Shown: positions 7,773 to 21,226 of the stretch, in pieces | How positions within the stretch are numbered: position 1 is the first letter of the stretch | How the letters are laid out: each line of letters starts with the position of its first letter | DNA from: Jiangellales bacterium | Lineage (GTDB): Bacteria; Actinomycetota; Actinomycetes; Jiangellales; Jiangellaceae | Direction of reading: 5' to 3' | DNA: 32,000 nucleotides | Assembly: GCA_038246785.1 (NCBI GenBank) | Contig: JBBRVP010000006.1 | Coordinates: forward strand, 73,304-105,303 | Notes under the pieces: model-generated | What the model was told of the DNA's origin: nothing | Seen by the model: only the letters and a program-made list of their open reading frames with translations | Database searches by the model: none | Position numbers and translations under genes: made by a program

Positions 7773-7804
7773 CGGTACGACACGCGGTACGGCGCGTCGT
7801 ACCG
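7773..7804 (+). terminator. GC-rich hairpin downstream of the MFS gene (possible intrinsic terminator, no U-tract)
   Basis: Left arm CGGTACGACACGC at 7773-7785, loop GGTACG at 7786-7791, right arm GCGCGTCGTACCG at 7792-7804. That gives a 13-bp stem with one A/C mismatch, starting 37 nt after the stop at 7736. Actinobacterial terminators often lack a T-tail. Confidence 0.4.
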
Positions 7805-7912
7805 CAGCCTCCACTCGGTCGTGGGGACCGGTGACCCCTGCGCCGGCCGAGCGTAAGGTCACGAGGAAGCGCGCGCAGGCCACAGCGAAACACGACGGCG
7901 AGGTGAGCGGTC

Positions 7913-8716
7913 ATGGGGACGGCACCCCCGCCGGCAGCACCGCCGTCCGCGACGCGCACCCCCGGTCCGACGCTGTTCGTGCGCTACGCCTACCCCCCCA
8001 ACGAGCGCGGTTCGTGCGGCCCGCCGCAGCACCGCACCCTGTTCGAGTACGGCGTCGCCGCCGAGGTCGACCCCGGCCTTGAGCTGCTTGCCCGCCAGTT
8101 CGCCGGGGCCTGGCCCTACCTCGAGTTCATCGCGGGCGTCAGCGGCATCCCGGACCCGCTCGACGCCCGCGTGGTCGAGGCGTACTGGCTCGGCAACGAC
8201 CTGCTCGACCGCATCGACATGACCACGTTCGGCAACGCGTTGATGGACCGCTTCCGCCGGGCGGCCGGCCGCTCATGGACCCACCTCGCCGAAGCGATCC
8301 CGGCCGGTGTCGTGCCGCACCACAGCTTCCACGTGTTCCACGTCTACCCGTGGGTCGGGCTGCTCGGCAACGGCCGCGGGGAGCCGCTGGAGGTCCTGCA
8401 GCGCTGCCGGATCCGCTGGGGCCGGGTACTGAGCGTCGAACGCGACCAGGTGGTGGTGGCGTCCCGGCCGCTGCGCTACGTCGACGGCAAGCTGCTGCTG
8501 GGAGAGCCGGAGCCGGAGACCGCGACCAGCGGGATCGACGGGGTCGGGCTGGCCGCCGGTCTGCGACCCGGCGAGTGGGTCGGGCTGCACTGGGGCTGGG
8601 TCTGCGACCGGCTCACGGCGAGCCAGCTGACCAACCTGCGCCGGTTCACGCTGCGACACGTGGAGATCGTCAACAGCCGGCTGGCGCACTCGGGCCCGGC
8701 GCTCACCCTCGGCTGA
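7913..8716 (+). CDS. Conserved hypothetical protein (I recall this family as DUF6390; unverified)
   Basis: ATG 7913 is preceded by GAGGTG. Conserved-looking boxes are FVRYAYPPNERGSCGP, AWPYLEFIAG, VVEAYWLGNDLL and HHSFHVFHVYPW. Its 3' end overlaps the convergent ABC ATPase gene by 14 nt (8703-8716). Confidence 0.75.
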   Translation: MGTAPPPAAPPSATRTPGPTLFVRYAYPPNERGSCGPPQHRTLFEYGVAAEVDPGLELLARQFAGAWPYLEFIAGVSGIPDPLDARVVEAYWLGNDLLDRIDMTTFGNALMDRFRRAAGRSWTHLAEAIPAGVVPHHSFHVFHVYPWVGLLGNGRGEPLEVLQRCRIRWGRVLSVERDQVVVASRPLRYVDGKLLLGEPEPETATSGIDGVGLAAGLRPGEWVGLHWGWVCDRLTASQLTNLRRFTLRHVEIVNSRLAHSGPALTLG

Positions 8717-9812
8717 CCGGGTGCGGGGCCGCCGCGCTCGCCGGTCCGGGCAGCAATCCCACCCGCTGCATGGCCCACCCGCAGCGCTCTCCGATCGCGG
8801 CCCGCGGGGCGCCACCGCCGCGGACCTCCACCTGGCCCGCCGGGGTGTCCAGCCGGTAGATCGTGTCCGGACCCCGGTAGCGCACCGCCAGCACCCGACC
8901 GGGCAGCGGGCCCCCGAGACCGCCCCACTCGGGGCGCAGCAGCAGCGCCGCGCGTCCGGCCGGCGGCTCCCGCCCGCCCGCGACGGCAACGGTGGCCGCC
9001 ACCTCGCCGACCCAGACCTCGATCGAGCCGGGACCGGCGGGGGCCACGGGGAGGTCGAGCGCGCAGGCCGGCCCCGTCAGCCGGGCGGCCCACAGATCCA
9101 CCGGATGCTCGTAGACCTGCTGTGGTGACCCGATCTGCGCCACCGCGCCGCCGCGCAGCAGCGCCACCCGGTCGGCGACTGTGAAGGCCTCCGCCACGTC
9201 GTGGGTCGCGTAGAGCACGGCCGCTCCGAGGGCCGTCCGCTGGGCCGCCAGCTCCTCCTGCAGCACGGTGCGCAGCGGCGCATCGAGGTGCGCGGTCGGC
9301 TCGTCGAACAGGTAGAGCGCGGCGCCTCTGGCCAGGGCCCGCGCGACACCGACCCGCTGCTGCTCACCGCCGGAGAGCTCGGCCGGCCGGCGGTCGGCCA
9401 GCGCCGCGACACCCATCCGTTCCAGCAGCACCATCGCCCGCTGGCGAGCCTCGGCCCGCGGCTGGCCGGCCCGGCGGATCGGGTACGCGACGGTGTCCAG
9501 CGCCGACAGATGCGGCCACAGCGCGTAGTTCTGGAACACCACCGCGACGTCACGGTCCTCCGGTGGATGGCTGCGCGGGCCGTCGACCACGACTCGGCCG
9601 TCGATCCGGATCAGACCGGAGTCCGGGGCGGTGAAGCCGGCCACCGTGTAGAGCAGTGTGGTCTTGCCGCACCCGGACGGCCCGAGCACCGCCATCGCCT
9701 CACCGGCGCACACGGCGAGGTCCAGGTCCCGCAGCACCGGCCGCCGGCCGTAGGACACGGTCAGCCCCACCGCCTCGAGCGCCGGGGCCGGCTCGCGACC
9801 GGCGGCCGTCAT
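8703..9812 (-). CDS. ABC transporter ATP-binding protein, FbpC/PotA-like with a C-terminal TOBE-like domain
   Basis: This is the C-terminal 369 codons of track ORF 8703..11417. The start is ATG 9812 (MTAAGREP...). Walker A is GPSGCGKTTLL, the Q-loop is VFQNYALWPHL, the signature is LSGGEQQRVGVARAL, Walker B is LYLFDEPTAHLD and the H-loop is ATHD. An ATGA overlap joins it to the permease stop (9809-9812). Confidence 0.9.
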   Translation of the reverse strand: MTAAGREPAPALEAVGLTVSYGRRPVLRDLDLAVCAGEAMAVLGPSGCGKTTLLYTVAGFTAPDSGLIRIDGRVVVDGPRSHPPEDRDVAVVFQNYALWPHLSALDTVAYPIRRAGQPRAEARQRAMVLLERMGVAALADRRPAELSGGEQQRVGVARALARGAALYLFDEPTAHLDAPLRTVLQEELAAQRTALGAAVLYATHDVAEAFTVADRVALLRGGAVAQIGSPQQVYEHPVDLWAARLTGPACALDLPVAPAGPGSIEVWVGEVAATVAVAGGREPPAGRAALLLRPEWGGLGGPLPGRVLAVRYRGPDTIYRLDTPAGQVEVRGGGAPRAAIGERCGWAMQRVGLLPGPASAAAPHPVSRG

Positions 9813-11461
9813 GTCGGCACCGACCGCCGGCCGGCGGCCCGGCGGGCCACCAGCAGCAGGCCGGCGGCGGCGGCGATGAGCAGGGTCAACAGCACCGACA
9901 GTGCCGAGGTCACGGCGACGTCTCCGAGCTGCTGGCGGTCGAGGATGACCACGGCCAGTGTCTTCGTGCCCGGCCCGTAGAGCAGGCTGGAGATGGTCAG
10001 CTCGTGCACGGCGAACAGGAAGACCAGCAGCCAGGCCGCGCCTAGGGCGGGCCGCAGCAGCGGCCCGACGATGGTGCGCACCGCCGTGGCCGCCCCGGCG
10101 CCGCTGACCCGGCCGGCGCGGACCAGGTCGGCGGGCAGGCGTTCGGCGGCGCCGGCGAGCGGACGGTGCCCGAGCGCCCAGAACTTCGCGAGGTACGCGA
10201 CGAGGATGATCGCCAGCGTGTCGCGGAGCGACCCTCCGTAGGCCAGCAGCACGGCCACCGCGAGCGTGGAGCCGGCCACCGCGAACGTCATCGTCACGGC
10301 GGTGCCGAGCACCCGGCCCACCCCGGCCCGGCCGAGCGCCGCGCTCAGCGCGCCGATCAGCAGGACGCCGGTGGCCGCGCCGGCGGCCAGCAGGACGGAG
10401 TTGGACAGGGCCTCGTACGTGTGCCCGTCCAGCGCCGCGGCGAAGTTGGCCAGCGTCCAGTTGGCCGGGACCGGGGCGAGCCCGACCGCCCTCGTCAGCG
10501 CCACCAGCACCAGCGCGAGCATGGGCAGCGCGACGGTGATGGCGAGGAACGTCCACAGCGCGGCAGCCAGACCCCACGACCGTCGCCCCGCCGCAGTCGC
10601 TGCGCCGGCGGCACCGCCGGTGCGCGGTGCCCGGCCCGCCCCGGCCAGCGCGTCGACGGGGGCGATGGCGATCACTGCGATCACGACCAGTCCCACCGCC
10701 AGGGCGGCCGCCGCCGCGAACGCCGCAGGGTCCACGGCCAGGGTCAGGTCCTGGTAGATCCGGGTGGTCATGGTGGGGAAGCCGGCTGGGATGCCGAGCA
10801 CCGCGGGCACCTCGAACGCATTGAGCCCGGTCACGAACACCAACGCCGCGGCGGCGGCGATGCCCGGGCGGGCCAGCGGCAGCGTCACGCTGCGGGCGGC
10901 CAGCCCGGCCGTGGCCCCGCAGGCGCGGGCCGCCCGCTCCAGGTCGGGCTCGACTCGGCTGGCCAGGCTCGCGGCGATGACGAGGTAGCCCACCGGCACC
11001 GCGCCGGCGGCGCCCACCACGACGATGCCGGCCGGGCCGTACAGCCCGTCCCAGTGCAGGCCGACCAGTCGGTCGAGCAGGCCGCCGGGCCCGTACGCGC
11101 GTGTCCAGCCGATCGCGCTCACCAGCGGCGCCCCGAGCAGGGCGGCCAGCAGCGCGCCGCGCAGCCAGCCCCGGCCGGGGGCCCGGCTTCGCTCGGTGAC
11201 GAAGGCCGCGGCGGCGCCGCCGAGCAAACCGAGGACCGTGACGGCGAGTGAGGTCCACACGGTGTTGACCACCGCCTGTCCAGTGGCGCCGGTGCGCAGC
11301 GTCCGGCCGACCGCGGCCGGCCCGTCCTCGAGCGCCACCGCGAACAGCCGGACCAGCGGGATGCCGACGAGCAGGACCAGCAGCGCGCTCACCAGCACCA
11401 GCCCGGCCGGCGTCCACGAGGTCGGGCGCCGCAACGACGGGGCCGCGACCGGATCAGTCAC
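9809..11461 (-). CDS. Iron(III)-type ABC transporter permease, two fused permease domains (FbpB-like)
   Basis: Track ORF of 550 aa. It is strongly hydrophobic throughout, with about 12 TM segments in two repeated halves. The size and duplicated architecture are typical of FbpB/ThiP-type permeases. Its GTG start at 11461 overlaps the SBP stop by 8 nt (GTGACTGA). Confidence 0.85.
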   Translation of the reverse strand: MTDPVAAPSLRRPTSWTPAGLVLVSALLVLLVGIPLVRLFAVALEDGPAAVGRTLRTGATGQAVVNTVWTSLAVTVLGLLGGAAAAFVTERSRAPGRGWLRGALLAALLGAPLVSAIGWTRAYGPGGLLDRLVGLHWDGLYGPAGIVVVGAAGAVPVGYLVIAASLASRVEPDLERAARACGATAGLAARSVTLPLARPGIAAAAALVFVTGLNAFEVPAVLGIPAGFPTMTTRIYQDLTLAVDPAAFAAAAALAVGLVVIAVIAIAPVDALAGAGRAPRTGGAAGAATAAGRRSWGLAAALWTFLAITVALPMLALVLVALTRAVGLAPVPANWTLANFAAALDGHTYEALSNSVLLAAGAATGVLLIGALSAALGRAGVGRVLGTAVTMTFAVAGSTLAVAVLLAYGGSLRDTLAIILVAYLAKFWALGHRPLAGAAERLPADLVRAGRVSGAGAATAVRTIVGPLLRPALGAAWLLVFLFAVHELTISSLLYGPGTKTLAVVILDRQQLGDVAVTSALSVLLTLLIAAAAGLLLVARRAAGRRSVPT

Positions 11462-12464
11462 CGAAGATGGCGCGGTAGCCCGCCCGCAGCTCTGCCTGCC
11501 GCGCGAAGATCGCGGACCAGTCGGGGACGACCTCCGGCAACGGAGCCGACATGGCCGGTACGTCGGCGCGGATCGGGTGCCGGTCGAGCTCGGCGAGCGC
11601 TCGCTGCGCCGGCGGGGTCAGCAGGAAGTTCGCCAGGGCCTCGGCGGCCTGCGTCGCGCGGCTGTCGGCGAAGACCGCCACCGGGGCGTACAGCCGCACC
11701 GCACCCGGCGCCGGGGCCGAGATCTCTAGCGGCGAGCCCTTGGTCACCGCTGCCCGGGCGAGGAAGTCGAGGGTCATGCCGGCAGTGAACCGGCCCTCCG
11801 CCACGCCGGAGATGACGTCACCGGGGGACTGCACCTGCACGGCGCCGTTTGCCTTCAGCCGGCGGTAGTAGTCCAGCCCGTAGCCGTCGGCCAGCGCGAA
11901 GTAGCCGAGCGCACCGAACGCTGACCCGGCGAAGCTCGGGTCGGGCAGCGCGACGGCGTCCCGGTACCGCGGGCCGGCCAGGTCCTGCCAGTTCTTCGGT
12001 GCCGCCCCAGGCTCGGACACCACCACCACGTCACTGGTGGTCACGCCCCAGAAGGTGTCGGTGTGGGCCTCGGCCGGTACGGCGGCCGCCGCCGCTGGTG
12101 ACCAGCGGCGGAGCAGCCCCTGGGCGGCGAACTGCTGCATCGACAGCGGATCGGACAGCAGGAGGACGTCGCCGCGGATCCCGCCGGAGCGCTGCTCGGC
12201 GGCCACCCGCGCGGTTATCTGCCCGGTGGGAGCCCGGAACAGCTCGACCCGGGTGCCGGGGGCGCTGGCGTGGTAGGCGGCCAGCAGCGCGTCGACCTCG
12301 GGCTGGCTGTAGGAGGTGTACAGACGCACCGTCGAGCCCGCGGAGGTGCTGCCGGCCGCACCGGGTGCACCGCCGGACGAGCTGCCGCAGCCGGCGAGCA
12401 GTCCGGCCACGAGCAGTCCGGCCACGAGCAGGGTCGCCGGGACGGCCCGCGCCGGCCGCCTCAC
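11454..12464 (-). CDS. ABC transporter substrate-binding lipoprotein, Fe(III)/FbpA-AfuA-like family
   Basis: Part of track ORF 11454..12719, with the start set at GTG 12464. The signal peptide VRRPARAVPATLLVAGLLVAGLLAGC ends in a lipobox (LAGC). The mature part reads TVRLYTSYSQPEVDALLAAYHA..PGTRVELFRAPTGQITARVAAEQRSGGIRGDVLLLSD, like family-1 Fe3+ binding proteins. The GTG overlaps the hypC stop (GTGA, 12461-12464). Confidence 0.85.
   Translation of the reverse strand: MRRPARAVPATLLVAGLLVAGLLAGCGSSSGGAPGAAGSTSAGSTVRLYTSYSQPEVDALLAAYHASAPGTRVELFRAPTGQITARVAAEQRSGGIRGDVLLLSDPLSMQQFAAQGLLRRWSPAAAAAVPAEAHTDTFWGVTTSDVVVVSEPGAAPKNWQDLAGPRYRDAVALPDPSFAGSAFGALGYFALADGYGLDYYRRLKANGAVQVQSPGDVISGVAEGRFTAGMTLDFLARAAVTKGSPLEISAPAPGAVRLYAPVAVFADSRATQAAEALANFLLTPPAQRALAELDRHPIRADVPAMSAPLPEVVPDWSAIFARQAELRAGYRAIFGD
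12396..12431 (-). repeat. In-frame 15-nt tandem duplication (2.4 copies) inside the SBP signal peptide
   Basis: On the plus strand, GAGCAGTCCGGCCAC occurs at 12396-12410 and again at 12411-12425, followed by a partial GAGCAG. It encodes the repeated LLVAG-LLVAG-LL in the h-region of the signal peptide. Confidence 0.9.
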
Positions 12465-12721
12465 GCCGGCGCCCCGTCCGGCCCGTCGAGCGGGCGGCCC
12501 ATCAGCTGCAACCCCTCCAGTGCCTCCCGGGCCGCCGCCTCGTCGACCTTCTCCATGGCGAAGCCCATGTGGATGAGCACCCAGCTGCCCGGCTCGACAC
12601 CCGCGTCCTCGAGCATCCCGATGTTGACCTTGCGCTGGCCGCCGACGACGTCGACGAGCGCAAGCTGGTCGCCGTAGCCCTCGACGAGCTCCACCACCTG
12701 GCCGGGAATCCCGAGGCACAT
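12461..12721 (-). CDS. hypC: HypC/HybG/HupF-family [NiFe]-hydrogenase maturation chaperone
   Basis: Track ORF of 86 aa. The N-terminus MCLGIPGQVVE is the invariant HypC signature (Cys2). VNIGML....PGSWVLIHMGFAME is typical of the family. Confidence 0.95.
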   Translation of the reverse strand: MCLGIPGQVVELVEGYGDQLALVDVVGGQRKVNIGMLEDAGVEPGSWVLIHMGFAMEKVDEAAAREALEGLQLMGRPLDGPDGAPA

Positions 12722-12725
12722 GGGC

Positions 12726-13229
12726 TCAGCCCCCTTCGACGGTGACGCCGGACGGTTCCAGCAGCCGCTCCAGCTGCTGGCGGACGAGCTGCACCGCTGG
12801 TTCTACCGCGGACTGCACCGGCTCGGACATACCGATGCCCTCCGCGCAGCCGGCCGGCTGGCATCCGACGACGACGGTACGCGGAAGGGTGCCGCCCAGC
12901 GTCTCGAGCCCCGCCAGTACCGCCACCGGGTCCATCCCGTGCGCGTCCAGCTCCCCGCCCCCCAGGTCGGCGGCGCTCACCTCGATCACCCGCAGCTCCC
13001 CGGGCCGGCCGGGCCTGTCCTCGACCGGTGCCGGCACGGTGTCGACGAGCACGAGCGCGTCGTAGCCGTCGAGCAGGTCGTAGGCCAGGTGCGCCCCCCT
13101 GATGCCGTAGTCCACGACCCGCACACCGTCCGGCAACGGCCGGCCGGCCAGCCGGCGGGCCACCTCCGGACCGAAGCCGTCGTCGCCGAGGAACAGGTTG
13201 CCGACGCCGGCCACGAGGATGCGCGGCAC
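12726..13229 (-). CDS. [NiFe]-hydrogenase maturation endopeptidase (HyaD/HybD/HupD family)
   Basis: This is the C-terminal 167 codons of track ORF 12726..13892. The GTG start at 13229 sits 6 nt after GAGGAGG. The N-terminus is VPRILVAGVGNLFLGDDGFGPEV, carrying the GN...GDDG.G protease signature. DAHGMDP lies further downstream. Confidence 0.92.
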   Translation of the reverse strand: MPRILVAGVGNLFLGDDGFGPEVARRLAGRPLPDGVRVVDYGIRGAHLAYDLLDGYDALVLVDTVPAPVEDRPGRPGELRVIEVSAADLGGGELDAHGMDPVAVLAGLETLGGTLPRTVVVGCQPAGCAEGIGMSEPVQSAVEPAVQLVRQQLERLLEPSGVTVEGG

Positions 13230-13258: not shown

Positions 13259-13378
13259 TCACATGCTGCGCATCTCGAGGTAGCGCTTGATGTCGGGGAT
13301 CGAGCGCAGGCCGATCACAGCGGCGCCGGCGACGGCCGCCGCGAGCAGCGCAGTGGTGAAAACTCCTACTGCCTTCAC
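13259..13378 (-). CDS. 39-aa single-TM microprotein (I recall the family as DUF6893; unverified)
   Basis: It is hidden as the last 39 codons of the spurious track ORF 13259..14629. It reads VKAVGVFTTALLAAAVAGAAVIGLRSIPDIKRYLEMRSM. The GTG start at 13378 overlaps the stop of the upstream 475-aa gene (GTGA, 13375-13378). The protease SD follows within the next 30 nt. One hydrophobic helix is followed by a basic amphipathic tail. Confidence 0.65.
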   Translation of the reverse strand: MKAVGVFTTALLAAAVAGAAVIGLRSIPDIKRYLEMRSM

Positions 13379-14802
13379 GGGTCCTCCTCCTCCCGGCGGG
13401 TGCGGGACGGTCCGGCGTCCGCGAGGGGCTCCAGCTCCTCGGGGGCGAAGTGCAGGTAACGGCCGTACCAGTCGTGGAGGTCGGCAGCGGGGTCGTCGTC
13501 GAGGACGACGGCGACATGCGTGCCGCCGTCGACGTCGCGCTGCACGGCGGCCACGCGAGCGGTGCGTCCGGCGAAGAAGAGGTCCTGCGCATCGGCCCGG
13601 CGGGACGGCCGCAGTCGCACCAGGCTGCCCTTGCCGACGACGGCGGCACCGACCTGGACCGTCTCGCGCTCCGGGTCGACGGCGGCGTCGACCCCGGGGT
13701 CCCACCACGGGGTGCCGGGAAGCGGGAACTCCGAGATCGGGACCTCGGGGCGCGGGAACTCGGCTGGCGGCAGCTCGGCGCTTGCCGTGGGGCTCCAGGT
13801 CGCCGCGCCGTGCGGGTCGCGCAGCACGCCGTGCAGCCGCTGCAGGTCGGCCGGCGACATCGCCTCGACCCGGTCGAGGATCGCGGCGGCATGGGCGTCG
13901 GTTGCCCGGGCCGCCGCCTTCTCCTCCTCGGTGAGGGTCAGCACCCGCAGGGTCAGGATCTCGTCGATCTCGGTGGAGTCGAACAGCGCTCCAACGCTCT
14001 CGGGCGCTATCGCCGGGTGGTCGTACAGGATGATCGGCGAGAGCAGGGCGATGTCGGTCTCGCCCTGCTCGCCGGCCAGCACGGGCCAGCAGCGGTGCTG
14101 CGCGCACCGCTCCGCGGCGTCGACGGCGTCCGCCGGGGGATCGATCACCGACACGAACTCCGCGTCGGTCACGGCCAGCAGCACGTGCGCACCGATTAAC
14201 GACGCCTGGATCGCCGCGTCCTTGGTGCCGTCGGCGGGGACGAGGTTGTGCACGGTCGTCCGCAGCCGGAGCAGGGAGCCGTCCTGCTCGGCACGCAGCC
14301 CCAGCTCTCCCCGCAGCGCCCGGCGACGGCGCAGCAGCCGCCCGGCGAGCGCGCCGGCAGCGTCGCGCAGCGGCTCCGTGTCCGCTCCGCCAGCCACCGC
14401 GATCGGCGTCCGCCACCCCGCCCGGAGAGCCTGGACGTCGACCGGTCCGAGCTCGAGCTCCCGCTCGACGGCCTCGTCCCAGGCAACCCAGCTGGTCCCG
14501 CCGACGGTGAGCTCGTCGACGGGGGTCGTCGAACCGTCGGGGTCGACCCGCTCGAGCCCGCGCCGCTGCAGCTGTAGGAAGCGGACGAAGACCCGGACCC
14601 GCGCCTGTCCGCCCGCGCGCAGCAGGCACTGCGCGGACATCTCCGATTCCTCACCGACGCCGGCCTCGGCCGCACCGACCGGCCCGAGGACGCCGAACTG
14701 CCAGCGCACCTGGTTCTTGCGCGAGGTCGACCGGTACGGATAGAGCAGGTAGCCCTCGTAGAGGACCGCGTCGGCCACCGCGCGCGCCAGGGCGAGGCTC
14801 AC
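13375..14802 (-). CDS. Conserved hypothetical protein, 475 aa, hydrogenase-linked, function unknown
   Basis: Track ORF 13375..14802. Boxes that look conserved are LYEGYLLYPYRSTSRKNQVRWQFGVLGP, HRCWPVLAGE, LSPIILYDHP and FDSTEIDEILTLRVLTLTEEEK, plus a C-terminal beta-rich part GSLVRLRP..ADAQDLFFAGRTARV. It has GTGA overlaps at both ends (14799-14802 and 13375-13378). Confidence 0.85.
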   Translation of the reverse strand: MSLALARAVADAVLYEGYLLYPYRSTSRKNQVRWQFGVLGPVGAAEAGVGEESEMSAQCLLRAGGQARVRVFVRFLQLQRRGLERVDPDGSTTPVDELTVGGTSWVAWDEAVERELELGPVDVQALRAGWRTPIAVAGGADTEPLRDAAGALAGRLLRRRRALRGELGLRAEQDGSLLRLRTTVHNLVPADGTKDAAIQASLIGAHVLLAVTDAEFVSVIDPPADAVDAAERCAQHRCWPVLAGEQGETDIALLSPIILYDHPAIAPESVGALFDSTEIDEILTLRVLTLTEEEKAAARATDAHAAAILDRVEAMSPADLQRLHGVLRDPHGAATWSPTASAELPPAEFPRPEVPISEFPLPGTPWWDPGVDAAVDPERETVQVGAAVVGKGSLVRLRPSRRADAQDLFFAGRTARVAAVQRDVDGGTHVAVVLDDDPAADLHDWYGRYLHFAPEELEPLADAGPSRTRREEEDP

Positions 14803-15440
14803 CGGACGACCTGACCCGCCTCGGCCAGCAGCGCCTCGACCGTGGCGTCCCAGCTGAGCAGGCCGCGCTCGGACTTGAAGCGGGCGAGCGCAGCGAGGGT
14901 GTCACGGTCGAGTCGCAGCCACGAGCTGCCGGGGAAGTAGCGGTCCATCAGCTCGCGCCACACCCGTACGGGCAGCCGATAGCTGCACTCGCGGTCCCAC
15001 GGGACCTGGGCCACCGAGAAGCCCGTCGTGCCGCGGGTGAACACGGTCCCGCTGAACAGCAGCACGAGCGGGATCTCGCCGTCACGCAACGCCTGCAAGT
15101 AGTTCGTGCCGGCGACCTCGAAGTCGTACGTGCACGGCAGCGCCAGCTCGACCTCGGTGCCGCCGGTGAAGCCCTGCACCATCGCGGTGGCGTGCAGCCA
15201 CAGGAACGGCTTGACGGTGTCGCCCCAGCGCGGGCGAGGTCCGAACAGGTCGGCCAGCCCGGCCGCCTCCGCGTCGTCGTAGCGGCGCCGCTGCGGCTCG
15301 ATGCGGACCTGGGCGCGCAGCGCGAGCGCGTGGACGACCTCGCCGGTGGTCTCCTCGACCCGGAGCCGGGCGACCAGCGTCGGGACGGCGGCGTACGGCT
15401 CGGCGGCGATGTCGAGGACGGAGAACGTGAGCGCGCTCAT
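14799..15440 (-). CDS. Conserved hypothetical protein, 213 aa (I recall the family as DUF6084; unverified)
   Basis: This is the C-terminal 213 codons of track ORF 14799..16688, with the start at ATG 15440 (MSALTFSVLDIAAEPYAAVPTL...). An ATGA overlap joins it to the upstream gene's stop (15437-15440). The sequence is protein-like and non-repetitive. Confidence 0.8.
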   Translation of the reverse strand: MSALTFSVLDIAAEPYAAVPTLVARLRVEETTGEVVHALALRAQVRIEPQRRRYDDAEAAGLADLFGPRPRWGDTVKPFLWLHATAMVQGFTGGTEVELALPCTYDFEVAGTNYLQALRDGEIPLVLLFSGTVFTRGTTGFSVAQVPWDRECSYRLPVRVWRELMDRYFPGSSWLRLDRDTLAALARFKSERGLLSWDATVEALLAEAGQVVR

Positions 15441-16135
15441 GCCGGCGCCCCCGCCCCGGGTGCAGGCCGGCTGCGCGCGGCCACCGACGTGAAGAAGTCC
15501 TCGATCGTGTCCCGCGCGTCCTGGCCCCCGTCGAAGCCGCGCCACACCTGGCGCAGCCGGCCGACCAGCTCGTAGCAGGCGTCGATCGGCACCAGGTAGC
15601 ACTGTGGCGGGTCGCCGGGACCGCTTCGCGACGCGTCCGGCACCCGCACGATCAGGGCCTCGACGTCGGGGGCCAGTGCCCCCAGCCCGGGGTTGCCCGC
15701 GACCACCTCGGCCCACGCCTCGAGCGCGAGCTCGGACTCGGCGGCTCCCGCCGGGCCCGGGTAGAACGCGACGGTCCGTCCGAGCACGGAGTTGTCGAAG
15801 AAGAAGGCGAGCCCGACCGGGATCTGCAGCTGCTCCCAGAGCCCCGGCTCGAGCCGGAACTGCGGGAAGGACAGGTAGCGGTCCGGGACGGCGCGATAGC
15901 GCAGCTGCGCCCCCTCGGCGGTGAAGAGCAGGTAGCAGGCCCGGCAGGTGCACATCAGCCCGCGGCTGGTGAGGTCGACGACGTGGGAGTGGGGCTCGGC
16001 GATGGGCGTCGCGCACATCTCGCAGCGCTCCCCGGGCGAGGGTGCAGGCCGGTTGGTCGTGATCCGGCTGAGTACCGCCAGGGCGGCGGCGTCCGGGCCG
16101 GTCCCGCCCGGCCGCGATGTCGCTGCCGGCTTCAC
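15437..16135 (-). CDS. Conserved hypothetical Cys-rich protein, 232 aa (I recall the family as DUF5947; unverified)
   Basis: Track ORF 15437..16135. It has a Cys cluster, CEMCATPIAEPHSHVVDLTSRGLMCTCRACYLLF (CxxC...CxCxxC), that looks like a metal site. The GTG start at 16135 overlaps the upstream stop (GTGA, 16132-16135). Confidence 0.8.
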   Translation of the reverse strand: MKPAATSRPGGTGPDAAALAVLSRITTNRPAPSPGERCEMCATPIAEPHSHVVDLTSRGLMCTCRACYLLFTAEGAQLRYRAVPDRYLSFPQFRLEPGLWEQLQIPVGLAFFFDNSVLGRTVAFYPGPAGAAESELALEAWAEVVAGNPGLGALAPDVEALIVRVPDASRSGPGDPPQCYLVPIDACYELVGRLRQVWRGFDGGQDARDTIEDFFTSVAARSRPAPGAGAPA

Positions 16136-17094
16136 GTACCGACCGCCCGCGGTACGGCGAGGCGGACGACACCGTCGCGGACCAGCAGCGGCACCGGGTC
16201 GAGGTGCTCAACCTCCCCGTCGGCGCCCGGGCCGTCGAGCCCGGCCCCCGCGTGCCGGACGTCGAAGTGGGACCGGCAGGCCGGGCAGCGCAGCACCGCG
16301 TCGTCGGCGGCGCCGCCGAGGCGGCGCTCGAGCCGCGCGCCCGACAGCGCCGCCGAGCAGTGCGGGCAGGAGTCGCGGTAGGCGTAGTACACCGAGCCGG
16401 CCCGGGCCACGACGACCGCGATCCCGGCGACGTCGACGCCGCACAGCTCGCCGGAGCCGAGGCCGGCGAGTTCGGGTACAGGCTCCCAGCCGGTCCCCGG
16501 GCTGACCGCGGGCGCGTCCAGCCGCACTCGAAGCGCGGCGACGGGGATGACCGGCTCCTGGCTGGGAGCGGGCGCCGGGTCGTGCGCGGGCGCCTCCACC
16601 TCGATGCCGGTGACCTCCGGGGCCGCCGCCTCCACGGCGTCCTTGACGGCGAGCTGAAGGGTGACCGCCGACGACGGGCAGCCGTCACAGCTGCCGAGCA
16701 GCGCTAGCCGGACCACGCCCTGCGCCGTGACCTCGATCAGCTCCACGTCCCCGCCGTGCGAGCCGAGGTAGGGCCGCACCCGGTCCAGGGCCCGGCCGAC
16801 CCGGGTCGAGACGTCGTGGGGGTGCAGACCGTGCACCAGCAGCAGGCTGGCCACCAGGTCGTCGTCGGCCAGCGCGTCGAGGGTCGCCGCGTCGAGCCGC
16901 CCCCGCTCGTGCACGATGTCGAGCACCCGCTCCAGGCCGGCGCCGTAGAGGTCGGCGGTCAGCCGGACGAGCTCCTCGGCCCGCTCTCGGGCCACCGCCC
17001 CGCCGGCCGCGCTGGCGTCGAGCAGGGCCTCGATCCGGGCGCCGGTGGCCCGCAGGTCAGGCGCGCCGCCGTCGGCAGTCTCCGGCCCGCTCAC
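16132..17094 (-). CDS. hhyE: Hydrogenase-associated Fe-S protein: NifU/Nfu-type domain fused to a C-terminal Rieske-like domain (HhyE-like)
   Basis: Track ORF of 320 aa. The central part, LGSHGGDVELIEV...VVRLALLGSCDGCPSSAVTLQ, is the Nfu/NifU C-terminal CxxC scaffold motif. The C-terminal part, YRDSCPHCSAAL...(x)...LRCPACRSHF, contains CxH and CxxH spacing reminiscent of Rieske [2Fe-2S] ligands plus two extra Cys. The position directly after the large subunit matches the putative Fe-S proteins HucE/HhyE reported for mycobacterial uptake hydrogenases. Confidence 0.8.
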   Translation of the reverse strand: MSGPETADGGAPDLRATGARIEALLDASAAGGAVARERAEELVRLTADLYGAGLERVLDIVHERGRLDAATLDALADDDLVASLLLVHGLHPHDVSTRVGRALDRVRPYLGSHGGDVELIEVTAQGVVRLALLGSCDGCPSSAVTLQLAVKDAVEAAAPEVTGIEVEAPAHDPAPAPSQEPVIPVAALRVRLDAPAVSPGTGWEPVPELAGLGSGELCGVDVAGIAVVVARAGSVYYAYRDSCPHCSAALSGARLERRLGGAADDAVLRCPACRSHFDVRHAGAGLDGPGADGEVEHLDPVPLLVRDGVVRLAVPRAVGT

Positions 17095-17104: not shown

Positions 17105-18895
17105 TCACTCGGCGGTCAATGACTGGGTTGGGCTGTGCGTCTTCTCCAGGACCTTCCCGCCGCCGAGGTACATGTGCACGCCGCAGGGCAGGCACGGGTC
17201 GAAGCTGCGGACGGTGCGCATGATGTCGATGCCCTTGAAGTGTTCCCGGTCGTTCTCCTCGAAGATCGGCTGGCCCTGCACGGCGTCCTCGTACGGGCCC
17301 GGGGTGCCGTAGGAGTCACGCGGGTTGGCGTTCCACGGGGTCGGCGGGTACGGGTGGTAGTTGGCGATCTTGCCGTCGCGGATCACCATGTGGTGGGAGA
17401 GGACCCCGCGCACCGCCTCGGTGAAGCCGCAGCCGATCGCCTCGTCGGGGACCTCGAAGCGCTCCCACGTCTTCGTCCGCCCGGCCCGGATCTCGACGAG
17501 CGCCTGCTCGGCGAAGTGCAGGGCGCAGGCGGCGGCGTAGGCCTGGAAGTAGGTCCGGGCCCGGTTGCGCTCGATGGTGTTGCTCCACTGCGGAATCTTC
17601 CACTCCATCGAGACCGGCCCCTTCAGCGCGGTCTTGGGCAGGTTGATCTGGACGCTGCTGCCGGTGGCCTTCACGTACCCGATGTCGACCAGGCCGGCGA
17701 GCGCCGTCGACCACAGCCGGGCCAACGGGCCGCCGCCGGTGTCCAGGGCGAGGTGGTCCTTGCCGTCGAACCAGCGCGGAGACATCACCCAGCTGTACTT
17801 GTCGTCCAGGTCGCGCTTCTGCGGCCTGGGATTGGTGTGCTGGTTCCACGGGTGCCGGCGGTCGACCGGGTTGCCGAGCGGGTCGTGGGTGACGAAGGTC
17901 TCCTGGTCCTCCCAGTCCTCGTAGTAGGAGCTGCCGAGCAGGATCCGGATGCCGAGGTTGATTGCAACGAGGTCGGTGGTGACGAGCTTCCCGTCGACGA
18001 TGACGCCGGGGGTCACGAACATCTTGCGGCCCCACTCGGTCATGTCCCGGTAGGCGAAGTTGCAGTGCTCCGGGTCCTGGAACGAGCCCCAGCAGCCGAG
18101 CAGCGTGCGGCGCAGCCCCACCTGCTCGTAGCCGGGCAGTGCCTCGTAGAAGAAGTCGAACAGGTCGTCGTGCATCGGCACGACCTTCTTCATGAACTCC
18201 ACGTAGCGCATGAGCCGGCTCATGTAGTCGGTCATGAGCTGGATCGTCGCCACGGTGCCGACGCCGCCGGGATACAGCGTCGAGGGGTGCACGTGGCGCC
18301 CCTCCATCAGGCAGAACATCTCCCGTGTCGACCGGCTGACCGCCAGCGCCTCGCGGTAGAACTCGCCGGTGAACGGGTTGAGCGAGCGCATGATGTCGCC
18401 GATGGTGCGGTAGCCGTGCTCGCCGGCGTGCGGCGCCTCGGTCCCGTTGGCCCGTTCCAGGACGCCCGGGTTGGTCTCGGCGACCATCTTCTCGCAGAAG
18501 TCGACCCCGACGAGGTTCTCCTGGAAGATGTTGTGGTCGAACATGTACTCGGCGGCCTCGCCGAGGTTGACGATCCACTCCCCGAGGTGCGGCGGCTTCA
18601 CGCCGTACGCCATGTTCTGCGTGTAGCACGAGCAGGTCGCATGGTTGTCGCCGCAGATGCCGCAGATGCGGCTGGTGATGAAGTGGGCGTCGCGGGGGTC
18701 CTTGCCCTTCATGAAGATGGAGTAGCCGCGGAAGATCGAGGACGTGCTGTGGCACTCGACGACCTCACGCTGCTTGAAGTCGATCTTCGTGTAGATGCCG
18801 AGGCTGCCCACGATCCGGGTGATCGGGTCCCACGCCATCTCGACGAGCTCGGTGTCGGTGCTCGTCGAGGTCCGTCGCGACGTGGTCGCCGTCAT
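17105..18895 (-). CDS. hhyL: [NiFe]-hydrogenase large subunit, group 1h (formerly group 5), high-affinity type
   Basis: Track ORF of 596 aa. The N-terminal Ni-Fe ligand motif is FITSRICGICGDNHATCS. The C-terminal motif is VRSFDPCLPCGVHMY. These are the L1/L2 signatures I recall for group 5/1h. A protease-cleavable tail follows the final His. Confidence 0.97.
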   Translation of the reverse strand: MTATTSRRTSTSTDTELVEMAWDPITRIVGSLGIYTKIDFKQREVVECHSTSSIFRGYSIFMKGKDPRDAHFITSRICGICGDNHATCSCYTQNMAYGVKPPHLGEWIVNLGEAAEYMFDHNIFQENLVGVDFCEKMVAETNPGVLERANGTEAPHAGEHGYRTIGDIMRSLNPFTGEFYREALAVSRSTREMFCLMEGRHVHPSTLYPGGVGTVATIQLMTDYMSRLMRYVEFMKKVVPMHDDLFDFFYEALPGYEQVGLRRTLLGCWGSFQDPEHCNFAYRDMTEWGRKMFVTPGVIVDGKLVTTDLVAINLGIRILLGSSYYEDWEDQETFVTHDPLGNPVDRRHPWNQHTNPRPQKRDLDDKYSWVMSPRWFDGKDHLALDTGGGPLARLWSTALAGLVDIGYVKATGSSVQINLPKTALKGPVSMEWKIPQWSNTIERNRARTYFQAYAAACALHFAEQALVEIRAGRTKTWERFEVPDEAIGCGFTEAVRGVLSHHMVIRDGKIANYHPYPPTPWNANPRDSYGTPGPYEDAVQGQPIFEENDREHFKGIDIMRTVRSFDPCLPCGVHMYLGGGKVLEKTHSPTQSLTAE

Positions 18896-18922
18896 GGGGT
18901 GCCGCCTCTCTGCGGTCGTGGG

Positions 18923-19978
18923 CTACCAGGTCCGGCGGGCGCCGGTGACGAGCTCGGAACCCCGGGTACGCCACTTGGGCTCCTTGTCCAGCGTGCGCAT
19001 CGTGATCTGGCGCAGGTTGCGGATCGTGGAGCCGTAGAGGCCGACCGCGGTCGTCGACAGCTTGCCGCCGGGAGGCTCGTCCATGAACGGCATGAACTTG
19101 TCGGGGAAGCCGGGCATCGTGCAGCCGATACAGATGCCGCCGACGTTGGGGCAGCCGCCGACACCGTTCATCCAGCCGCGCTTGGGCACGTTGCACTTCA
19201 CGACCGGCCCCCAGCAGCCCAGCTTGACGATGCACTTCGGCGAGCCGTACTCGGTGGCGAAGTCGGCCTGCTCGTAGTAGCCCGCGCGGTCGCAGCCCTC
19301 GTGCACGGTGGCGCCGAAGAGCCAGGTCGGCCGCAGCGCCTCATCGAGCGGGATCATCGGCGCCTGGTCGGTGGCCATGTAGAGCAGGTAGGTCAGGGTC
19401 TCGGACAGGTTGTCCGGCTGGATCGGGCAGCCCGGCACGCAGACGATCGGGATGCCGGCCTTGGACTTCCAGTCCCACCCGAGGTAGTCGGGTACCCCCA
19501 TTGCGCCGGTCGGGTTGCCGGCCATGGCATGGATGCCGCCGTACGTCGCGCAGGTGCCGGCCGCGACGATCGCGGTCGCCTTCGGGGCGAGGCGGTCCAG
19601 CCACTCGCTGGTCGTCATCGGCTGGCCGGTGGCGGGGTCGTTGCCGAACCCGCACCAGTAACCCTCGTCCTTGATCTTCTCGTTCGGGATGGAGCCCTCG
19701 ACGACCAGCACGAACGGCTCCAGCTCGCCCCGGTCGGCCTTGAAGAACCACTCGAGGAAGTCGTCGGCGCCGCCGGCGGGACCGCACTCGAAGTCGATGA
19801 GCGGCCAGTGCACGGCGATCTTCGGCAACCCCGGCAGGGCCCCGAGCGCGATCTCCTCGATGCTGGGCTGGGTGGCGGCCGTGAGGGCCACCGAGTCCCC
19901 GTCGCAGCTGAGCCCCGCGTTGATCCACAGAACATGGATCAGGGTCTCCTCGGCCTTGGTCGCAGCCGCAGTCGGCAT
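18923..19978 (-). CDS. hhyS: [NiFe]-hydrogenase small subunit, group 1h, no Tat signal
   Basis: Track ORF 18923..19999. I prefer ATG 19978 (MPTAAATKAEETLIHVLWINAGLSCDGDS...). TTG 19999 is the alternative. Fe-S ligand boxes are GTCATYGG, VPGCP, HEGCDRAGY, KLGCWGP and GGCPNVGGICIGCTMPGFPD. There is no RRxFxK twin-arginine leader. Confidence 0.95.
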   Translation of the reverse strand: MPTAAATKAEETLIHVLWINAGLSCDGDSVALTAATQPSIEEIALGALPGLPKIAVHWPLIDFECGPAGGADDFLEWFFKADRGELEPFVLVVEGSIPNEKIKDEGYWCGFGNDPATGQPMTTSEWLDRLAPKATAIVAAGTCATYGGIHAMAGNPTGAMGVPDYLGWDWKSKAGIPIVCVPGCPIQPDNLSETLTYLLYMATDQAPMIPLDEALRPTWLFGATVHEGCDRAGYYEQADFATEYGSPKCIVKLGCWGPVVKCNVPKRGWMNGVGGCPNVGGICIGCTMPGFPDKFMPFMDEPPGGKLSTTAVGLYGSTIRNLRQITMRTLDKEPKWRTRGSELVTGARRTW

Positions 19979-20058
19979 GCCCACCGCTTCCCGGGGCAAC
20001 GCCCGCCCCTGGTGCCACCGGAGCCGGGCATCGGCCCACCTGCGTGGCCTGGACCCCG

Positions 20059-20163: not shown

Positions 20164-20895
20164 TCACCGAGCGTCGATCCACGCGTACCAGGCGGCGATC
20201 CCGGTCCCGTGGGTCGCCGACAGCGCCAGCACCTCGACGCCGGGGTTCACCGAGCGCGCGTGCGTCGCACAGACCCCGACGTCGAAGTCGACGTAGGGCA
20301 GCAGGTCGGTCTTGTTGACCAGGACCAGGTCGGCTGCGGCGAACATGTGCGGGTACTTCAGCGGCTTGTCCTGGCCCTCGGTCACCGAGACGACGACCAC
20401 CCGGGCGCGCTCACCGAGGTCGAACAGCGCCGGGCAGACGAGGTTGCCGACGTTCTCCACGAGCACGAGGGCGCCCCGGGGCGGGTCGAGGGCGTCCAGC
20501 GCCCGCTGGGTCATGTCGGCGTCGAGGTGGCAACCGGCCCCGGTGTTGACCTGGACGACGGGTACGCCGGTGGCCCGGATCCGCTCGGCGTCCAGCGCGG
20601 TCTCCTGGTCGCCCTCGACGACGGCGACCGGCCGCTGCCGCGCCAGATCTCGCACCGTCCGCTCCAGCAGCGTCGTCTTCCCCGAACCCGGGGAGCTCAT
20701 GAGGTTGAGCGCGACCACGTCGCGCTCGGCCAGCCAGGCCCGCGTACGCGCCGCCAGCCGATCGTTCTTGGCCAGCACGCGCTGCTCCAGCGACACGACG
20801 TTGCCGTGCGCGTGCTCGTCGTGGTCATGGTCGTGGACGCCCACACCGTCGAGCCGGGGGCCGGCGTCCTCGCCGCAGCCGCACGTGGCGCACAC
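20164..20895 (-). CDS. hypB: Hydrogenase nickel-incorporation GTPase HypB
   Basis: Part of track ORF 20164..21009. The start is GTG 20895, giving VCATCGCGE (the HypB N-terminal CxxCGC metal site). There is a His-rich stretch, HDHDHDEHAHG. The GTPase P-loop is SSPGSGKTTLL. ENVGNLVCP and NKTDL are also present. The start lies 1 nt after the hypA stop. Confidence 0.95.
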   Translation of the reverse strand: MCATCGCGEDAGPRLDGVGVHDHDHDEHAHGNVVSLEQRVLAKNDRLAARTRAWLAERDVVALNLMSSPGSGKTTLLERTVRDLARQRPVAVVEGDQETALDAERIRATGVPVVQVNTGAGCHLDADMTQRALDALDPPRGALVLVENVGNLVCPALFDLGERARVVVVSVTEGQDKPLKYPHMFAAADLVLVNKTDLLPYVDFDVGVCATHARSVNPGVEVLALSATHGTGIAAWYAWIDAR

Positions 20896-20896
20896 C

Positions 20897-21226
20897 TCAG
20901 GCCACCTCCATCGCCGAGATCGCCAGCTCGCGTCCGGCGAGCACCTCGACGTCGCTGCTGCCGCACGGGCAGAGCAGCACGAGGTTGGGCAGGTCGAAGG
21001 TCGCGGCACAGGACCGGCAACCGGCCCGGCCGGCCGGCTCGTCGATCCGCAGGGCCGCCCCCTCCGCCGGCGTGCCCGCCGCCACCAGGTCGAAGCTGAA
21101 GCGCAGCGCGTCCGGGACGACCCCCGACAGCCGACCGACCCGCAGCCGGACCTCGACGATGCGTCGCCCGGCGGCCCGCTCGGTCACGGTGTCCACGATG
21201 CTCTGCGCGATCGACAACTCGTGCAC
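20897..21226 (-). CDS. hypA: Hydrogenase nickel-insertion/maturation factor HypA
   Basis: This is the C-terminal 109 codons of track ORF 20897..21583. The start is GTG 21226, giving VHELSIAQSIVDTV (the HypA MHE Ni-binding N-terminus). The Zn-site cysteines are CRSC ... CPCG. GGGTGG lies 5 nt upstream of the start. Confidence 0.92.
   Translation of the reverse strand: MHELSIAQSIVDTVTERAAGRRIVEVRLRVGRLSGVVPDALRFSFDLVAAGTPAEGAALRIDEPAGRAGCRSCAATFDLPNLVLLCPCGSSDVEVLAGRELAISAMEVA

What the first reader, a model, noticed from the sequence alone, without database searches (positions are those of the whole stretch)
8703..12721. hypC is translationally coupled to a complete Fe(III)-type ABC importer, and hypD/hypE/hypF are missing from the locus
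The hypC stop and the start of a lipoprotein SBP share GTGA (12461-12464). The SBP, a fused double permease and the ATPase then overlap each other (GTGACTGA at 11454-11461, ATGA at 9809-9812). The importer is therefore the 3' end of the hydrogenase transcription unit.

The position after hypC is where hypD-hypE (and often hypF) normally sit. None of these is present anywhere in the 32-kb window. The locus therefore has the Ni-insertion (HypAB), chaperone (HypC) and protease functions, but not the Fe(CN)2CO synthesis machinery.

A metal importer wired into a hydrogenase operon suggests dedicated Fe supply for an enzyme carrying 12 or more Fe atoms per heterodimer. Ni or another ligand is possible, because SBP specificity cannot be read from the sequence alone.
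Basis: partly seen in the sequence, partly recalled or inferred. Interest (0 to 1): 0.62.

Follow-up and report, generated by a model that had tools for sequence, protein, structure and literature searches.

The report
Hydrogenase importer module replacing HypDEF
An uptake pump and a HypC-like protein of unknown function are attached to an air-hydrogen hydrogenase operon in a genome that lacks three assembly genes thought indispensable, and the same pairing recurs in dozens of soil bacteria, so these microbes may build the enzyme's iron centre in an undescribed way.

Summary
The hypC stop and the start of the lipoprotein binding protein share GTGA (12461-12464). The binding protein, fused double permease and ATPase overlap as described. 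hypD, hypE and hypF are missing from the window and from the whole 97.5%-complete genome.

The interpretation needs revising.

1. The importer and the convergent DUF6390 gene (7913-8716) form one conserved four-gene module. It lies beside [NiFe]-hydrogenase loci in Actinomycetota, Chloroflexota and Dormibacterota: 69 of 80 related loci carry DUF6390 and 53 of 80 carry hydrogenase or hyp genes.
2. The module goes with absence of HypDEF. Of 45 module genomes, 41 lack HypD. In a 401-genome class sample, all 7 module carriers have HhyL and lack HypD, while none of 81 genomes with both HhyL and HypD has the module.
3. The hypC-importer coupling here comes from an inversion of the module. It is rare: 2 of 80 loci, plus one more.
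4. "Fe(III)-type" is not supported. The binding-protein family has no conserved Tyr-Tyr or His, and its profile scores organophosphate binders above ferric binders.
5. DUF6390 ends in a HypC-like domain that keeps the HypC Cys and His.

The hydrogenase is under purifying selection and its active-site cysteines are intact. How its Fe(CN)2CO unit is made is unknown.

This scan has already reported the same pattern on other DNA (for example e1-5251248 and e1-3327422).

The parts
12461..12721 (-). hypC (86 aa; MCLGIPG N-terminus with Cys2; His in LIHMGFA)
   Evidence: PF01455 at 80 bits; TIGR00074 at 75 bits against a cut-off of 48. Sequence.
11454..12464 (-). Lipoprotein substrate-binding protein of the importer (336 aa; FbpA/AfuA/PhnS-like cluster-D fold). 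Its GTG start overlaps the hypC stop.
   Evidence: AlphaFold model with pLDDT 90. Foldseek TM 0.73-0.78 to PhnS-like, FutA, FbpA, AfuA and MctA. Profile against PDB.
9809..11461 (-). Fused double permease (550 aa); overlaps the binding-protein stop by 8 nt
   Evidence: BPD_transp_1. PhnU2 model aligned over residues 20-537, at 116 bits against a cut-off of 593, so it is not a member of that equivalog.
8703..9812 (-). ABC ATPase with a C-terminal TOBE domain (369 aa); ATGA overlap with the permease stop
   Evidence: ABC_tran at 112 bits and TOBE_2. The best NCBIfam hits (PotA, UgpC, PhnT) are all below their cut-offs.
7913..8716 (+). DUF6390 protein (267 aa): a new helical N-domain plus a HypC-like C-domain. 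It is convergent with the ATPase gene and overlaps its 3' end by 14 nt. It is the fourth member of the module.
   Evidence: PF19927 at 309 bits. AlphaFold pLDDT 88.9. Best PDB match is HypC 2z1c, probability 1.0, TM on target 0.61. hhalign matches the GxWVxxHxG box of HypC. Invariant residues are C35, H137, C165, H226 and C231.
12726..13229 (-). Hydrogenase maturation endopeptidase (start approximate)
   Evidence: TIGR00072 at 116 bits over residues 226-374 of the long ORF.
13375..17094 (-). Four uncharacterised group-1h accessory genes: a 475-aa protein with no family, DUF6084, DUF5947 and a NifU-Rieske protein
   Evidence: They are also present in HypDEF-positive relatives.
17105..19999 (-). 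hhyL (596 aa; RICGICGDNH and DPCLPCGVH motifs plus a 22-aa C-terminal extension) and hhyS (358 aa)
   Evidence: This is the only [NiFe] large subunit in the genome.
20164..21226 (-). hypA (about 20897-21226) and hypB (20164 to about 21009)
   Evidence: PF01155 at 100 bits. TIGR00073 at 275 bits against a cut-off of 121.

Best explanation
The binding protein, fused permease, ATPase and convergent DUF6390 gene form one conserved module that serves [NiFe]-hydrogenase maturation. In this genome an inversion of the four-gene block has placed the importer directly behind hypC, so it is expressed as the tail of the hydrogenase operon.

The module is the signature of a maturation genotype that keeps HypA, HypB, HypC and the endopeptidase but has no HypD, HypE or HypF.

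Proposed working (inferred): the importer brings in a metal chelate or an anionic small solute needed for the iron half of the active site. DUF6390 receives or carries it in the cytoplasm. DUF6390 keeps the Cys and His of HypC in its C-domain and adds an invariant Cys and His in a new N-domain. It then hands the iron unit to HypC and HhyL, taking over at least the scaffold role of HypD.

Shown here: gene identities and overlaps; genome-wide absence of HypDEF; conserved linkage of the module to hydrogenase loci; its near-exclusive occurrence in HypD-less genomes; purifying selection on the hydrogenase and the module.

Inferred: co-transcription; the substrate; the role of DUF6390; and that the module compensates for HypDEF.
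For: Linkage to hydrogenase loci:
- Of 80 loci encoding relatives of the binding protein, 69 carry DUF6390 and 53 carry hydrogenase or hyp genes in the fetched stretch. They span Actinomycetota, Chloroflexota and Dormibacterota. Gene order falls into at least four arrangements, yet adjacency is kept.
- Of 14 genomes where no hydrogenase was in the flank, 13 have one elsewhere, often on the same contig.

Absence of HypDEF:
- 41 of 45 module genomes have no HypD.
- HypE and HypF are also absent in all 9 module genomes tested: G000, G021, G009, G063 (the isolate Modestobacter sp. DSM 44400), G071 (the assembly of record OY969553.1, titled 'chromosome: 1'), G101, G191 and G393; and also G027, which has DUF6390 but a different importer class.

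Class sample of 401 genomes at least 90% complete:
- 91 have HhyL.
- 7 carry the binding-protein orthologue (E <= 1e-113). All 7 have HhyL within about 10 kb and all 7 lack HypD.
- None of the 81 genomes with both HhyL and HypD carries it.

Relatives show a clean replacement. G039 reads hypC-hypF-hypC'-hypD-hypE-DUF6390, while G021, G009 and G027 read hypC-DUF6390 on one contig.

G027 has no HypDEF and carries a non-homologous Peripla_BP_2/FecCD importer next to DUF6390 at the same site.

On the HhyL tree, the HhyL sequences of module/no-HypD genomes do not form one clade. The AU test rejects one clade at p = 0.005. The tree needs 7-8 state changes, at least 3 of them on well-supported branches.

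The hydrogenase looks functional:
- HhyL dN/dS is 0.12-0.18 among HypDEF-less genomes at dS 0.4-0.6.
- Both NiFe cysteine motifs are intact in every HhyL match that covers them.
- The module genes have dN/dS of 0.19-0.27.

DUF6390 has a HypC-like fold with the Cys and His retained. It is found in 7 of 35 genomes with both HhyL and HypD, in 69 of the 80 module loci, and in all 3 module genomes searched genome-wide.
Against: - There is no experimental or transcript evidence.
- The association could partly reflect shared descent or transfer of one locus type. Only 3 phylogenetically independent contrasts sit on well-supported branches, so the sign test cannot reach significance.
- Four genomes carry both the module and HypD, so the two are not strictly exclusive.
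- DUF6390 also occurs in some HypDEF-positive loci.
- One 267-aa protein plus an importer cannot obviously replace the carbamoyl-transfer, dehydration and reduction chemistry of HypF, HypE and HypD.
- The substrate is unresolved.
- Most genomes are metagenome-assembled. I know of no demonstration that an organism of this genotype oxidises H2.
Confidence: 0.55

Rival explanations
1. This is a plain iron (Fe3+) uptake operon that feeds the high iron demand of the hydrogenase. HypDEF loss is unrelated and is covered by unknown, unlinked genes.
For: The binding protein has the FbpA/FutA fold. Public names of relatives say 'Fe3+ ABC transporter'. G027 has a FecCD-type importer, a class that often carries iron chelates, at the same site.
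Against: - No conserved Tyr-Tyr pair or His is present in the family.
- Ferric binders score far below organophosphate binders.
- No ferric equivalog is hit in NCBIfam.
- None of 81 genomes with both HhyL and HypD has the module, although they have the same iron demand.
- Neighbourhood clustering found no other conserved gene that could stand in for HypDEF.
Confidence: 0.15
2. The importer is a nickel-chelate uptake system that supplies HypA and HypB.
For: G000 has no NiCoT/HoxN-type nickel permease. Peripla_BP_2/FecCD importers such as the one in G027 include nickel-chelate systems (an earlier scan note, e1-2491459, compared such a pump to NiuBDE). MctA-like metal-citrate binders are among the best structural matches.
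Against: No cluster-D binding protein is known to me to bind nickel. Earlier first-reader notes on other genomes (e1-2648338, e1-2454745; not checked here) report hoxN or NiCoT in the same locus as the module. Nickel supply does not explain the exclusive association with HypDEF loss.
Confidence: 0.12
3. The hydrogenase locus is decaying or the assembly is incomplete. hypDEF were lost or not assembled, the enzyme is inactive, and the importer is a chance neighbour.
For: G000 is a draft of 84 contigs. Two other genomes with HhyL but no HypD (G168, G318) are fragmented and lack DUF6390, so they look like assembly gaps. L088 shows a broken HhyL.
Against: - The hypC-importer and hypC-DUF6390 junctions are contiguous inside long contigs.
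- The isolate Modestobacter sp. DSM 44400 (G063), the assembly of record OY969553.1 (titled 'chromosome: 1'; G071) and several assemblies of 6-20 contigs show the same genotype.
- HhyL dN/dS is 0.12-0.18 with the active-site motifs intact.
- Linkage is conserved in three phyla.
Confidence: 0.04

Closest known systems
Canonical Hyp maturation system (HypABCDEF plus endopeptidase) of group 1h/5 hydrogenase loci, such as the G039-type locus hypC-hypF-hypC'-hypD-hypE
   Same: Same structural genes (HhyL 88% identical), the same four uncharacterised accessory genes, and HypA, HypB, HypC and the protease.
   Different: HypD, HypE and HypF are absent genome-wide. At their site lie an ABC importer and a DUF6390 gene.
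AfuABC / VcA0625 sugar-phosphate importers, P5PA (PLP) and PhnS-type phosphonate binders
   Same: These are the best profile matches to the binding protein (E 3e-24 to 9e-17). They share the fused double permease plus PotA-like ATPase architecture, and the anion-binding loop DPxxxG(S/T)A aligns.
   Different: Identity is only 15-20%. All NCBIfam equivalog scores are far below cut-off (PhnS2 at 67 bits against 393). None of these systems is known to be linked to hydrogenases.
FbpABC / FutABC / HitABC ferric-ion importers and the MctA metal-citrate binder
   Same: Same fold (TM 0.73-0.78) and the same operon architecture.
   Different: The Tyr-Tyr (plus His/Glu) iron ligands are not conserved. 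Profile E-values are only 1e-13 to 1e-10.
HypC/HybG/HupF chaperones (PF01455; T. kodakarensis HypC, 2z1c)
   Same: The DUF6390 C-domain has the same OB fold followed by a helix. It keeps a Cys at the position of HypC Cys2 (C165, CRIRWG against CLGIPG) and the His of the GxWVxxHxG box (H226).
   Different: The Cys is internal, not N-terminal. A 160-residue helical domain with its own invariant Cys35 and His137, and no PDB match, precedes it. PF01455 itself is not hit.

Membership tests
HypC/HupF family (PF01455, TIGR00074), for the gene at 12461-12721 | Model score above the curated cut-off; N-terminal Met-Cys; conserved His in the GxWVLxHxGFA box | tested here: met
   80 bits against 28.5 and 75 bits against 48. 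MCLGIPG and WVLIHMGFA are in the sequence.
Complete Hyp maturation set (HypABCDEF) | HypD (PF01924), HypE (TIGR02124) and HypF (TIGR00143) present in the genome | tested here: not met
   No hit above cut-off in G000. tblastn with a relative's HypD/E/F gives nothing better than ThiL.
Binding-protein-dependent (type I) ABC importer | Secreted or lipidated binding protein; permease with two BPD_transp_1 halves; ABC ATPase | tested here: met
   LAGC lipobox; SBP_bac_11, BPD_transp_1 and ABC_tran+TOBE_2; PhnU2 aligned over residues 20-537.
Ferric-ion binding proteins (FbpA/FutA/HitA) | Adjacent Tyr-Tyr iron ligands in the C-lobe (plus His/Glu or further Tyr); a hit to a ferric binding-protein family model | tested here: not met
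   No two adjacent alignment columns both have Tyr in at least 30% of the 44 sequences, and no His column exceeds 50%. No ferric binding-protein model appears among the NCBIfam hits. That Tyr-Tyr is common to all ferric binders is from my own knowledge.
AfuA/P5PA/PhnS organophosph(on)ate binders | Equivalog score above cut-off; ligand-contact residues | tested here: not met
   PhnS2 at 67 bits against 393 and PhnS at 46 bits against 395. Ligand-contact residues were not compared in 3D.
DUF6390 (PF19927), for the gene at 7913-8716 | Model score above cut-off | tested here: met
   309 bits against 25, covering 3-243 of 244 model positions.
Group 1h (Hhy, actinobacterial-type) [NiFe]-hydrogenase | L1 and L2 motifs of the TSRICGICGDNH / SFDPCLPCGVH type; small subunit without a Tat leader; accessory gene set | tested here: met
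   Both motifs are present. No RRxF leader is in HhyS. The DUF5947, DUF6084 and NifU-Rieske set is present. That these motifs are diagnostic is from memory; no classifier was run.

The most novel reading that the evidence does not exclude
Dozens of aerobic soil bacteria in at least three phyla mature [NiFe]-hydrogenases without HypD, HypE and HypF. A transporter imports a precursor, either an iron complex or a ligand donor. DUF6390, a HypC-like protein with an added Cys/His domain, acts as the scaffold on which the iron-carbonyl-cyanide unit (or a functional equivalent) is assembled or received and then passed to HypC. This would be a second, undescribed route to the [NiFe] active site.
Probability: 0.3. 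Interest if true: 0.95.

Novelty: new variant of a known kind. Interest (0 to 1): 0.8.

Why it matters
HypC, HypD, HypE and HypF are treated as universally required to build the Fe(CN)2CO half of every [NiFe]-hydrogenase. Here a well-conserved atmospheric-H2-type hydrogenase persists under purifying selection in many genomes that lack three of the four. These genomes always carry a transporter plus a HypC-derived protein at the vacated site.

If these enzymes are active, there must be another way to make or obtain the iron-ligand unit. That bears on hydrogenase biochemistry, on heterologous production of O2-tolerant hydrogenases, and on reading trace-gas metabolism from metagenomes, where 'hyp genes incomplete' is often taken as a sign of a non-functional enzyme.

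The question is directly testable. At least one isolate of this genotype (Modestobacter sp. DSM 44400) is among the public genome records.

Tried and rejected
- Promoter and terminator scan: no promoter-like site, and one terminator-like site inside the permease gene. The scan is uninformative at 74% G+C.
- Literature: searches for DUF6390; for hhyL plus hypD plus ABC transporter; for phrases on lack of hypD; and for Modestobacter hydrogenase found no paper on HypDEF-less group 1h loci or this importer. The Frankia hydrogenase-loss paper (PMC11879354) holds none of the search terms.
- Other known routes in G000: no HydG; no NiCoT; the HypE-like hit is ThiL.
- Search of the class sample for the FecCD-type binding protein of G027: only G027 and one genome without a hydrogenase. 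This is too rare to test its association.
- Unbiased clustering of all ORFs in the 80 loci: no further conserved neighbour that could stand in for HypDEF.
- hhalign of DUF6390 against HypC: only a 23-column local match (probability 29%). The HypC relationship rests mainly on the fold search.
- Independent-pairs test: 3 well-supported contrasts, all concordant, but too few for significance.
- G168 and G318 (HhyL present, HypD absent, no module): set aside as probable assembly gaps (220 and 390 contigs, no DUF6390).
- Ligand assignment from the AlphaFold model: model coordinates cannot be read in the Python box, so no pocket analysis was done.


Full report
**What is in the window**

The window is G000:C6:73304-105303. 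It lies inside a 132-kb contig of a 3.4-Mb actinobacterial draft with 73% G+C and 97.5% completeness. Same-family relatives are labelled Jiangellales.

On the minus strand the locus reads, in order:

| Gene | Coordinates |
|---|---|
| hypA | about 20897-21226 |
| hypB | 20164 to about 21009 |
| hhyS | 18923-19999 |
| hhyL | 17105-18895 |
| NifU-Rieske | 16132-17094 |
| DUF5947 | 15437-16135 |
| DUF6084 | 14799-15440 |
| 475-aa protein, no family | 13375-14802 |
| endopeptidase | 12726 to about 13229 |
| hypC | 12461-12721 |
| lipoprotein binding protein | 11454-12464 |
| fused double permease | 9809-11461 |
| ABC ATPase with TOBE domain | 8703-9812 |

A DUF6390 gene (7913-8716, plus strand) converges on the ATPase gene and overlaps it by 14 nt.

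**Check of the observation**

GTG at 12464 gives a good lipoprotein signal peptide (RRPAR, a hydrophobic core, then LAGC).

No HypD, HypE or HypF gene is in the window or in the rest of the assembly. This rests on family models and on tblastn with the HypD, HypE and HypF of a relative. The only HypE-like hit is thiamine-phosphate kinase. hhyL is the only [NiFe] large subunit in the genome. It keeps RICGICGDNH, DPCLPCGVH and a C-terminal extension for the protease.

**Relatives: the importer belongs to a four-gene module**

G021 is in the same family, is 99% complete, and has HhyL 90% identical to the window's. Its order is hypC > DUF6390 > then convergent ATPase < permease < binding protein. 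G009 has the same order next to a different hydrogenase type (about 37% identical; L2 motif DPCMPCTTH).

The window therefore equals that order with the block [DUF6390 ... binding protein] inverted. Pirin supports this. It lies on the DUF6390 side in the window and on the binding-protein side in L104 and L112.

A scan of one genome per species found 80 loci encoding relatives of the binding protein at 38-75% identity.
- 69 also carry DUF6390, 53 carry hydrogenase or hyp genes, and only 3 carry hypD/E/F in the fetched stretch.
- The loci come from Actinomycetota (Sporichthyaceae, Jiangellales, Nocardioidaceae, Geodermatophilaceae, Euzebyales, Nitriliruptorales, Acidimicrobiia), Chloroflexota (Limnocylindria, Chloroflexia) and Dormibacterota.
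- 30 loci have hypC > DUF6390 > < importer.
- 28 have DUF6390 > importer co-directional. In 10 of these a co-directional hypC was seen upstream, so they read hypC > DUF6390 > importer.
- 2 (L043, L045) have the window's order. G121 (L159) adds one more.

In L043 the hypC/binding-protein GTGA overlap is conserved. In L159 a 13-nt spacer with GGGAGG separates the two genes.

Of 14 genomes whose module had no hydrogenase in the flank, 13 have [NiFe]-hydrogenases elsewhere, often on the same contig. Unbiased clustering of all ORFs in the 80 loci found no other conserved neighbour.

**The module goes with absence of HypDEF**

HypD is absent from 41 of 45 module genomes. These include the isolate Modestobacter sp. 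DSM 44400 (G063) and G071, the assembly of record OY969553.1, titled 'chromosome: 1'. HypE and HypF are also absent in every module genome tested.

An evenly drawn sample of 401 genomes of the class, each at least 90% complete, gave the following:

| Group | Count |
|---|---|
| Genomes with HhyL | 91 |
| ... of these, with HypD | 81 |
| ... of these 81, with the binding-protein orthologue | 0 |
| Genomes with the binding-protein orthologue (E <= 1e-113) | 7 |
| ... of these 7, with HhyL within about 10 kb | 7 |
| ... of these 7, lacking HypD | 7 |

Three further genomes have HhyL but no HypD and no module.
- G027 carries DUF6390 next to a non-homologous Peripla_BP_2/FecCD/ATPase importer at the same site.
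- G168 and G318 are fragmented assemblies without DUF6390, and are probably assembly gaps.

In G039 the site reads hypC-hypF-hypC'-hypD-hypE-DUF6390. The HypDEF-less loci therefore look like clean replacements. L085 and L117 carry both the module and hypF-hypC'-hypD-hypE, and may be intermediates.

DUF6390 is in 7 of 35 genomes that have both HhyL and HypD. It is enriched in the HypDEF-less genotype but not exclusive to it.

**Is this one event or several?**

On an HhyL tree of 60 sequences, the HhyL sequences of module/no-HypD genomes are scattered (7-8 state changes, at least 3 forced by well-supported branches). The AU test rejects their forming one clade (p = 0.005).

Only 3 independent contrasts sit on well-supported branches. 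All are concordant, but too few for a sign test. The association is strong in counts yet not proven independent of descent.

**Is the hydrogenase alive?**

HhyL dN/dS is 0.12-0.18 between HypDEF-less genomes at dS 0.4-0.6, and 0.008 between two close ones. Both cysteine motifs are intact in every HhyL match that covers them; L088, where HhyL is broken into four pieces, keeps both motifs as well.

The binding protein, permease, ATPase, DUF6390, HypC and the protease have dN/dS of 0.17-0.27 against L043. Decay is therefore unlikely.

**What the parts look like**

Binding protein:
- The AlphaFold model (pLDDT 90) has the FbpA/AfuA/PhnS/MctA fold, with TM 0.73-0.78 and 15-20% identity to all of these.
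- The family profile scores VcA0625 (a glucose-6-phosphate binder) at 3e-24, AfuA at 7e-22, P5PA at 3e-19 and a PhnS-like protein at 9e-17. Ferric binders score only 1e-13 to 1e-10.
- The family has no conserved adjacent tyrosines and no conserved histidine.
- The anion-binding loop (DPxFAGSA) aligns with that of the phosphate-group binders.
- No NCBIfam equivalog cut-off is reached by any of the three importer proteins.
- The substrate is therefore open. An anionic solute or a metal chelate is the best guess. The FecCD-type pump in G027 points towards chelates.

DUF6390:
- The model (pLDDT 88.9) has a helical N-domain without a PDB match and a C-terminal OB fold plus helix. The best PDB match of the C-domain is HypC (2z1c, probability 1.0).
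- Invariant C165 (CRIRWG) sits where HypC has Cys2 (CLGIPG). Invariant H226 aligns with the HypC His.
- The N-domain adds invariant C35 (in a CGP box) and H137.

**Known alternatives excluded in G000**

There is no HydG. There is no NiCoT either, so nickel uptake by the importer cannot be excluded for this genome.

**Relation to earlier notes of this scan**

The same pattern has been reported on other DNA: hyp A/B/C and the protease, no hypD/E/F, DUF6390, and a transporter. Follow-ups e1-5251248, e1-3327422, e1-4316779 and e1-4596262 reached a similar reading, some with a DMT/EamA permease in place of an ABC importer. I did not test that variant.

**Verdict**

It is wrong or incomplete on iron specificity, on the extent of the unit, and on the significance.

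The most likely reading (0.55) is a hydrogenase-maturation module of importer plus HypC-like DUF6390 that characterises, and probably enables, a HypDEF-less genotype. Here it has been joined to hypC by an inversion. The chemistry remains unknown.

Noticed in passing
L037 (G009), L055, L059, L062, L064, L070: A second [NiFe]-hydrogenase type (about 37-43% identical to HhyL; L2 motif DPCMPCTTH) also sits next to the same DUF6390-importer module. The module is therefore not specific to group 1h enzymes. The group of this second type was not assigned.
   Followed up: partly
L039:5921-9939 (G027): A genome with no HypDEF carries a Peripla_BP_2 binding protein, a FecCD permease and an ATPase next to DUF6390 and hypC, in place of the cluster-D importer. 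PEP carboxylase lies just beyond.
   Followed up: partly
window 12390-12431: CTGCTCGTGGCCGGA is duplicated in tandem within the signal peptide of the binding protein. This adds LLVAG to the hydrophobic core just before the LAGC lipobox.
   Followed up: no
window 5469-8716: Pirin, an MFS transporter and DUF6390 are co-directional on the plus strand. Pirin is also next to the module in L104 and L112, but on the binding-protein side. This fits an inversion of the four-gene block in the window's lineage.
   Followed up: partly
L085:13593-20000 and L117:4264-9700: Two genomes carry both the module and hypF-hypC'-hypD-hypE, followed by a second, more divergent DUF6390 copy (45-47% identical). They may be intermediates between the two maturation genotypes.
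   Followed up: no
L088:18806-20548; G157, G249 and G291: HhyL, and in three HypD-positive genomes also HypD, appear split into several frames. These are either pseudogenes or long-read indel errors.
   Followed up: no
G047:C3:359474-390085 (L058 and beyond); also G059 and G463: In Chloroflexia the module lies within about 20 kb of two further [NiFe] large-subunit genes. One matches the Pfam model full-length at 780 bits. G047 and G059 have no HypD; G463 was not searched for HypD.
   Followed up: no
window 20897-21226 and 20164-21009: The longest hypB ORF overlaps the 3' end of hypA by about 110 nt in another frame. The true hypB start is probably further downstream and was not determined.
   Followed up: no
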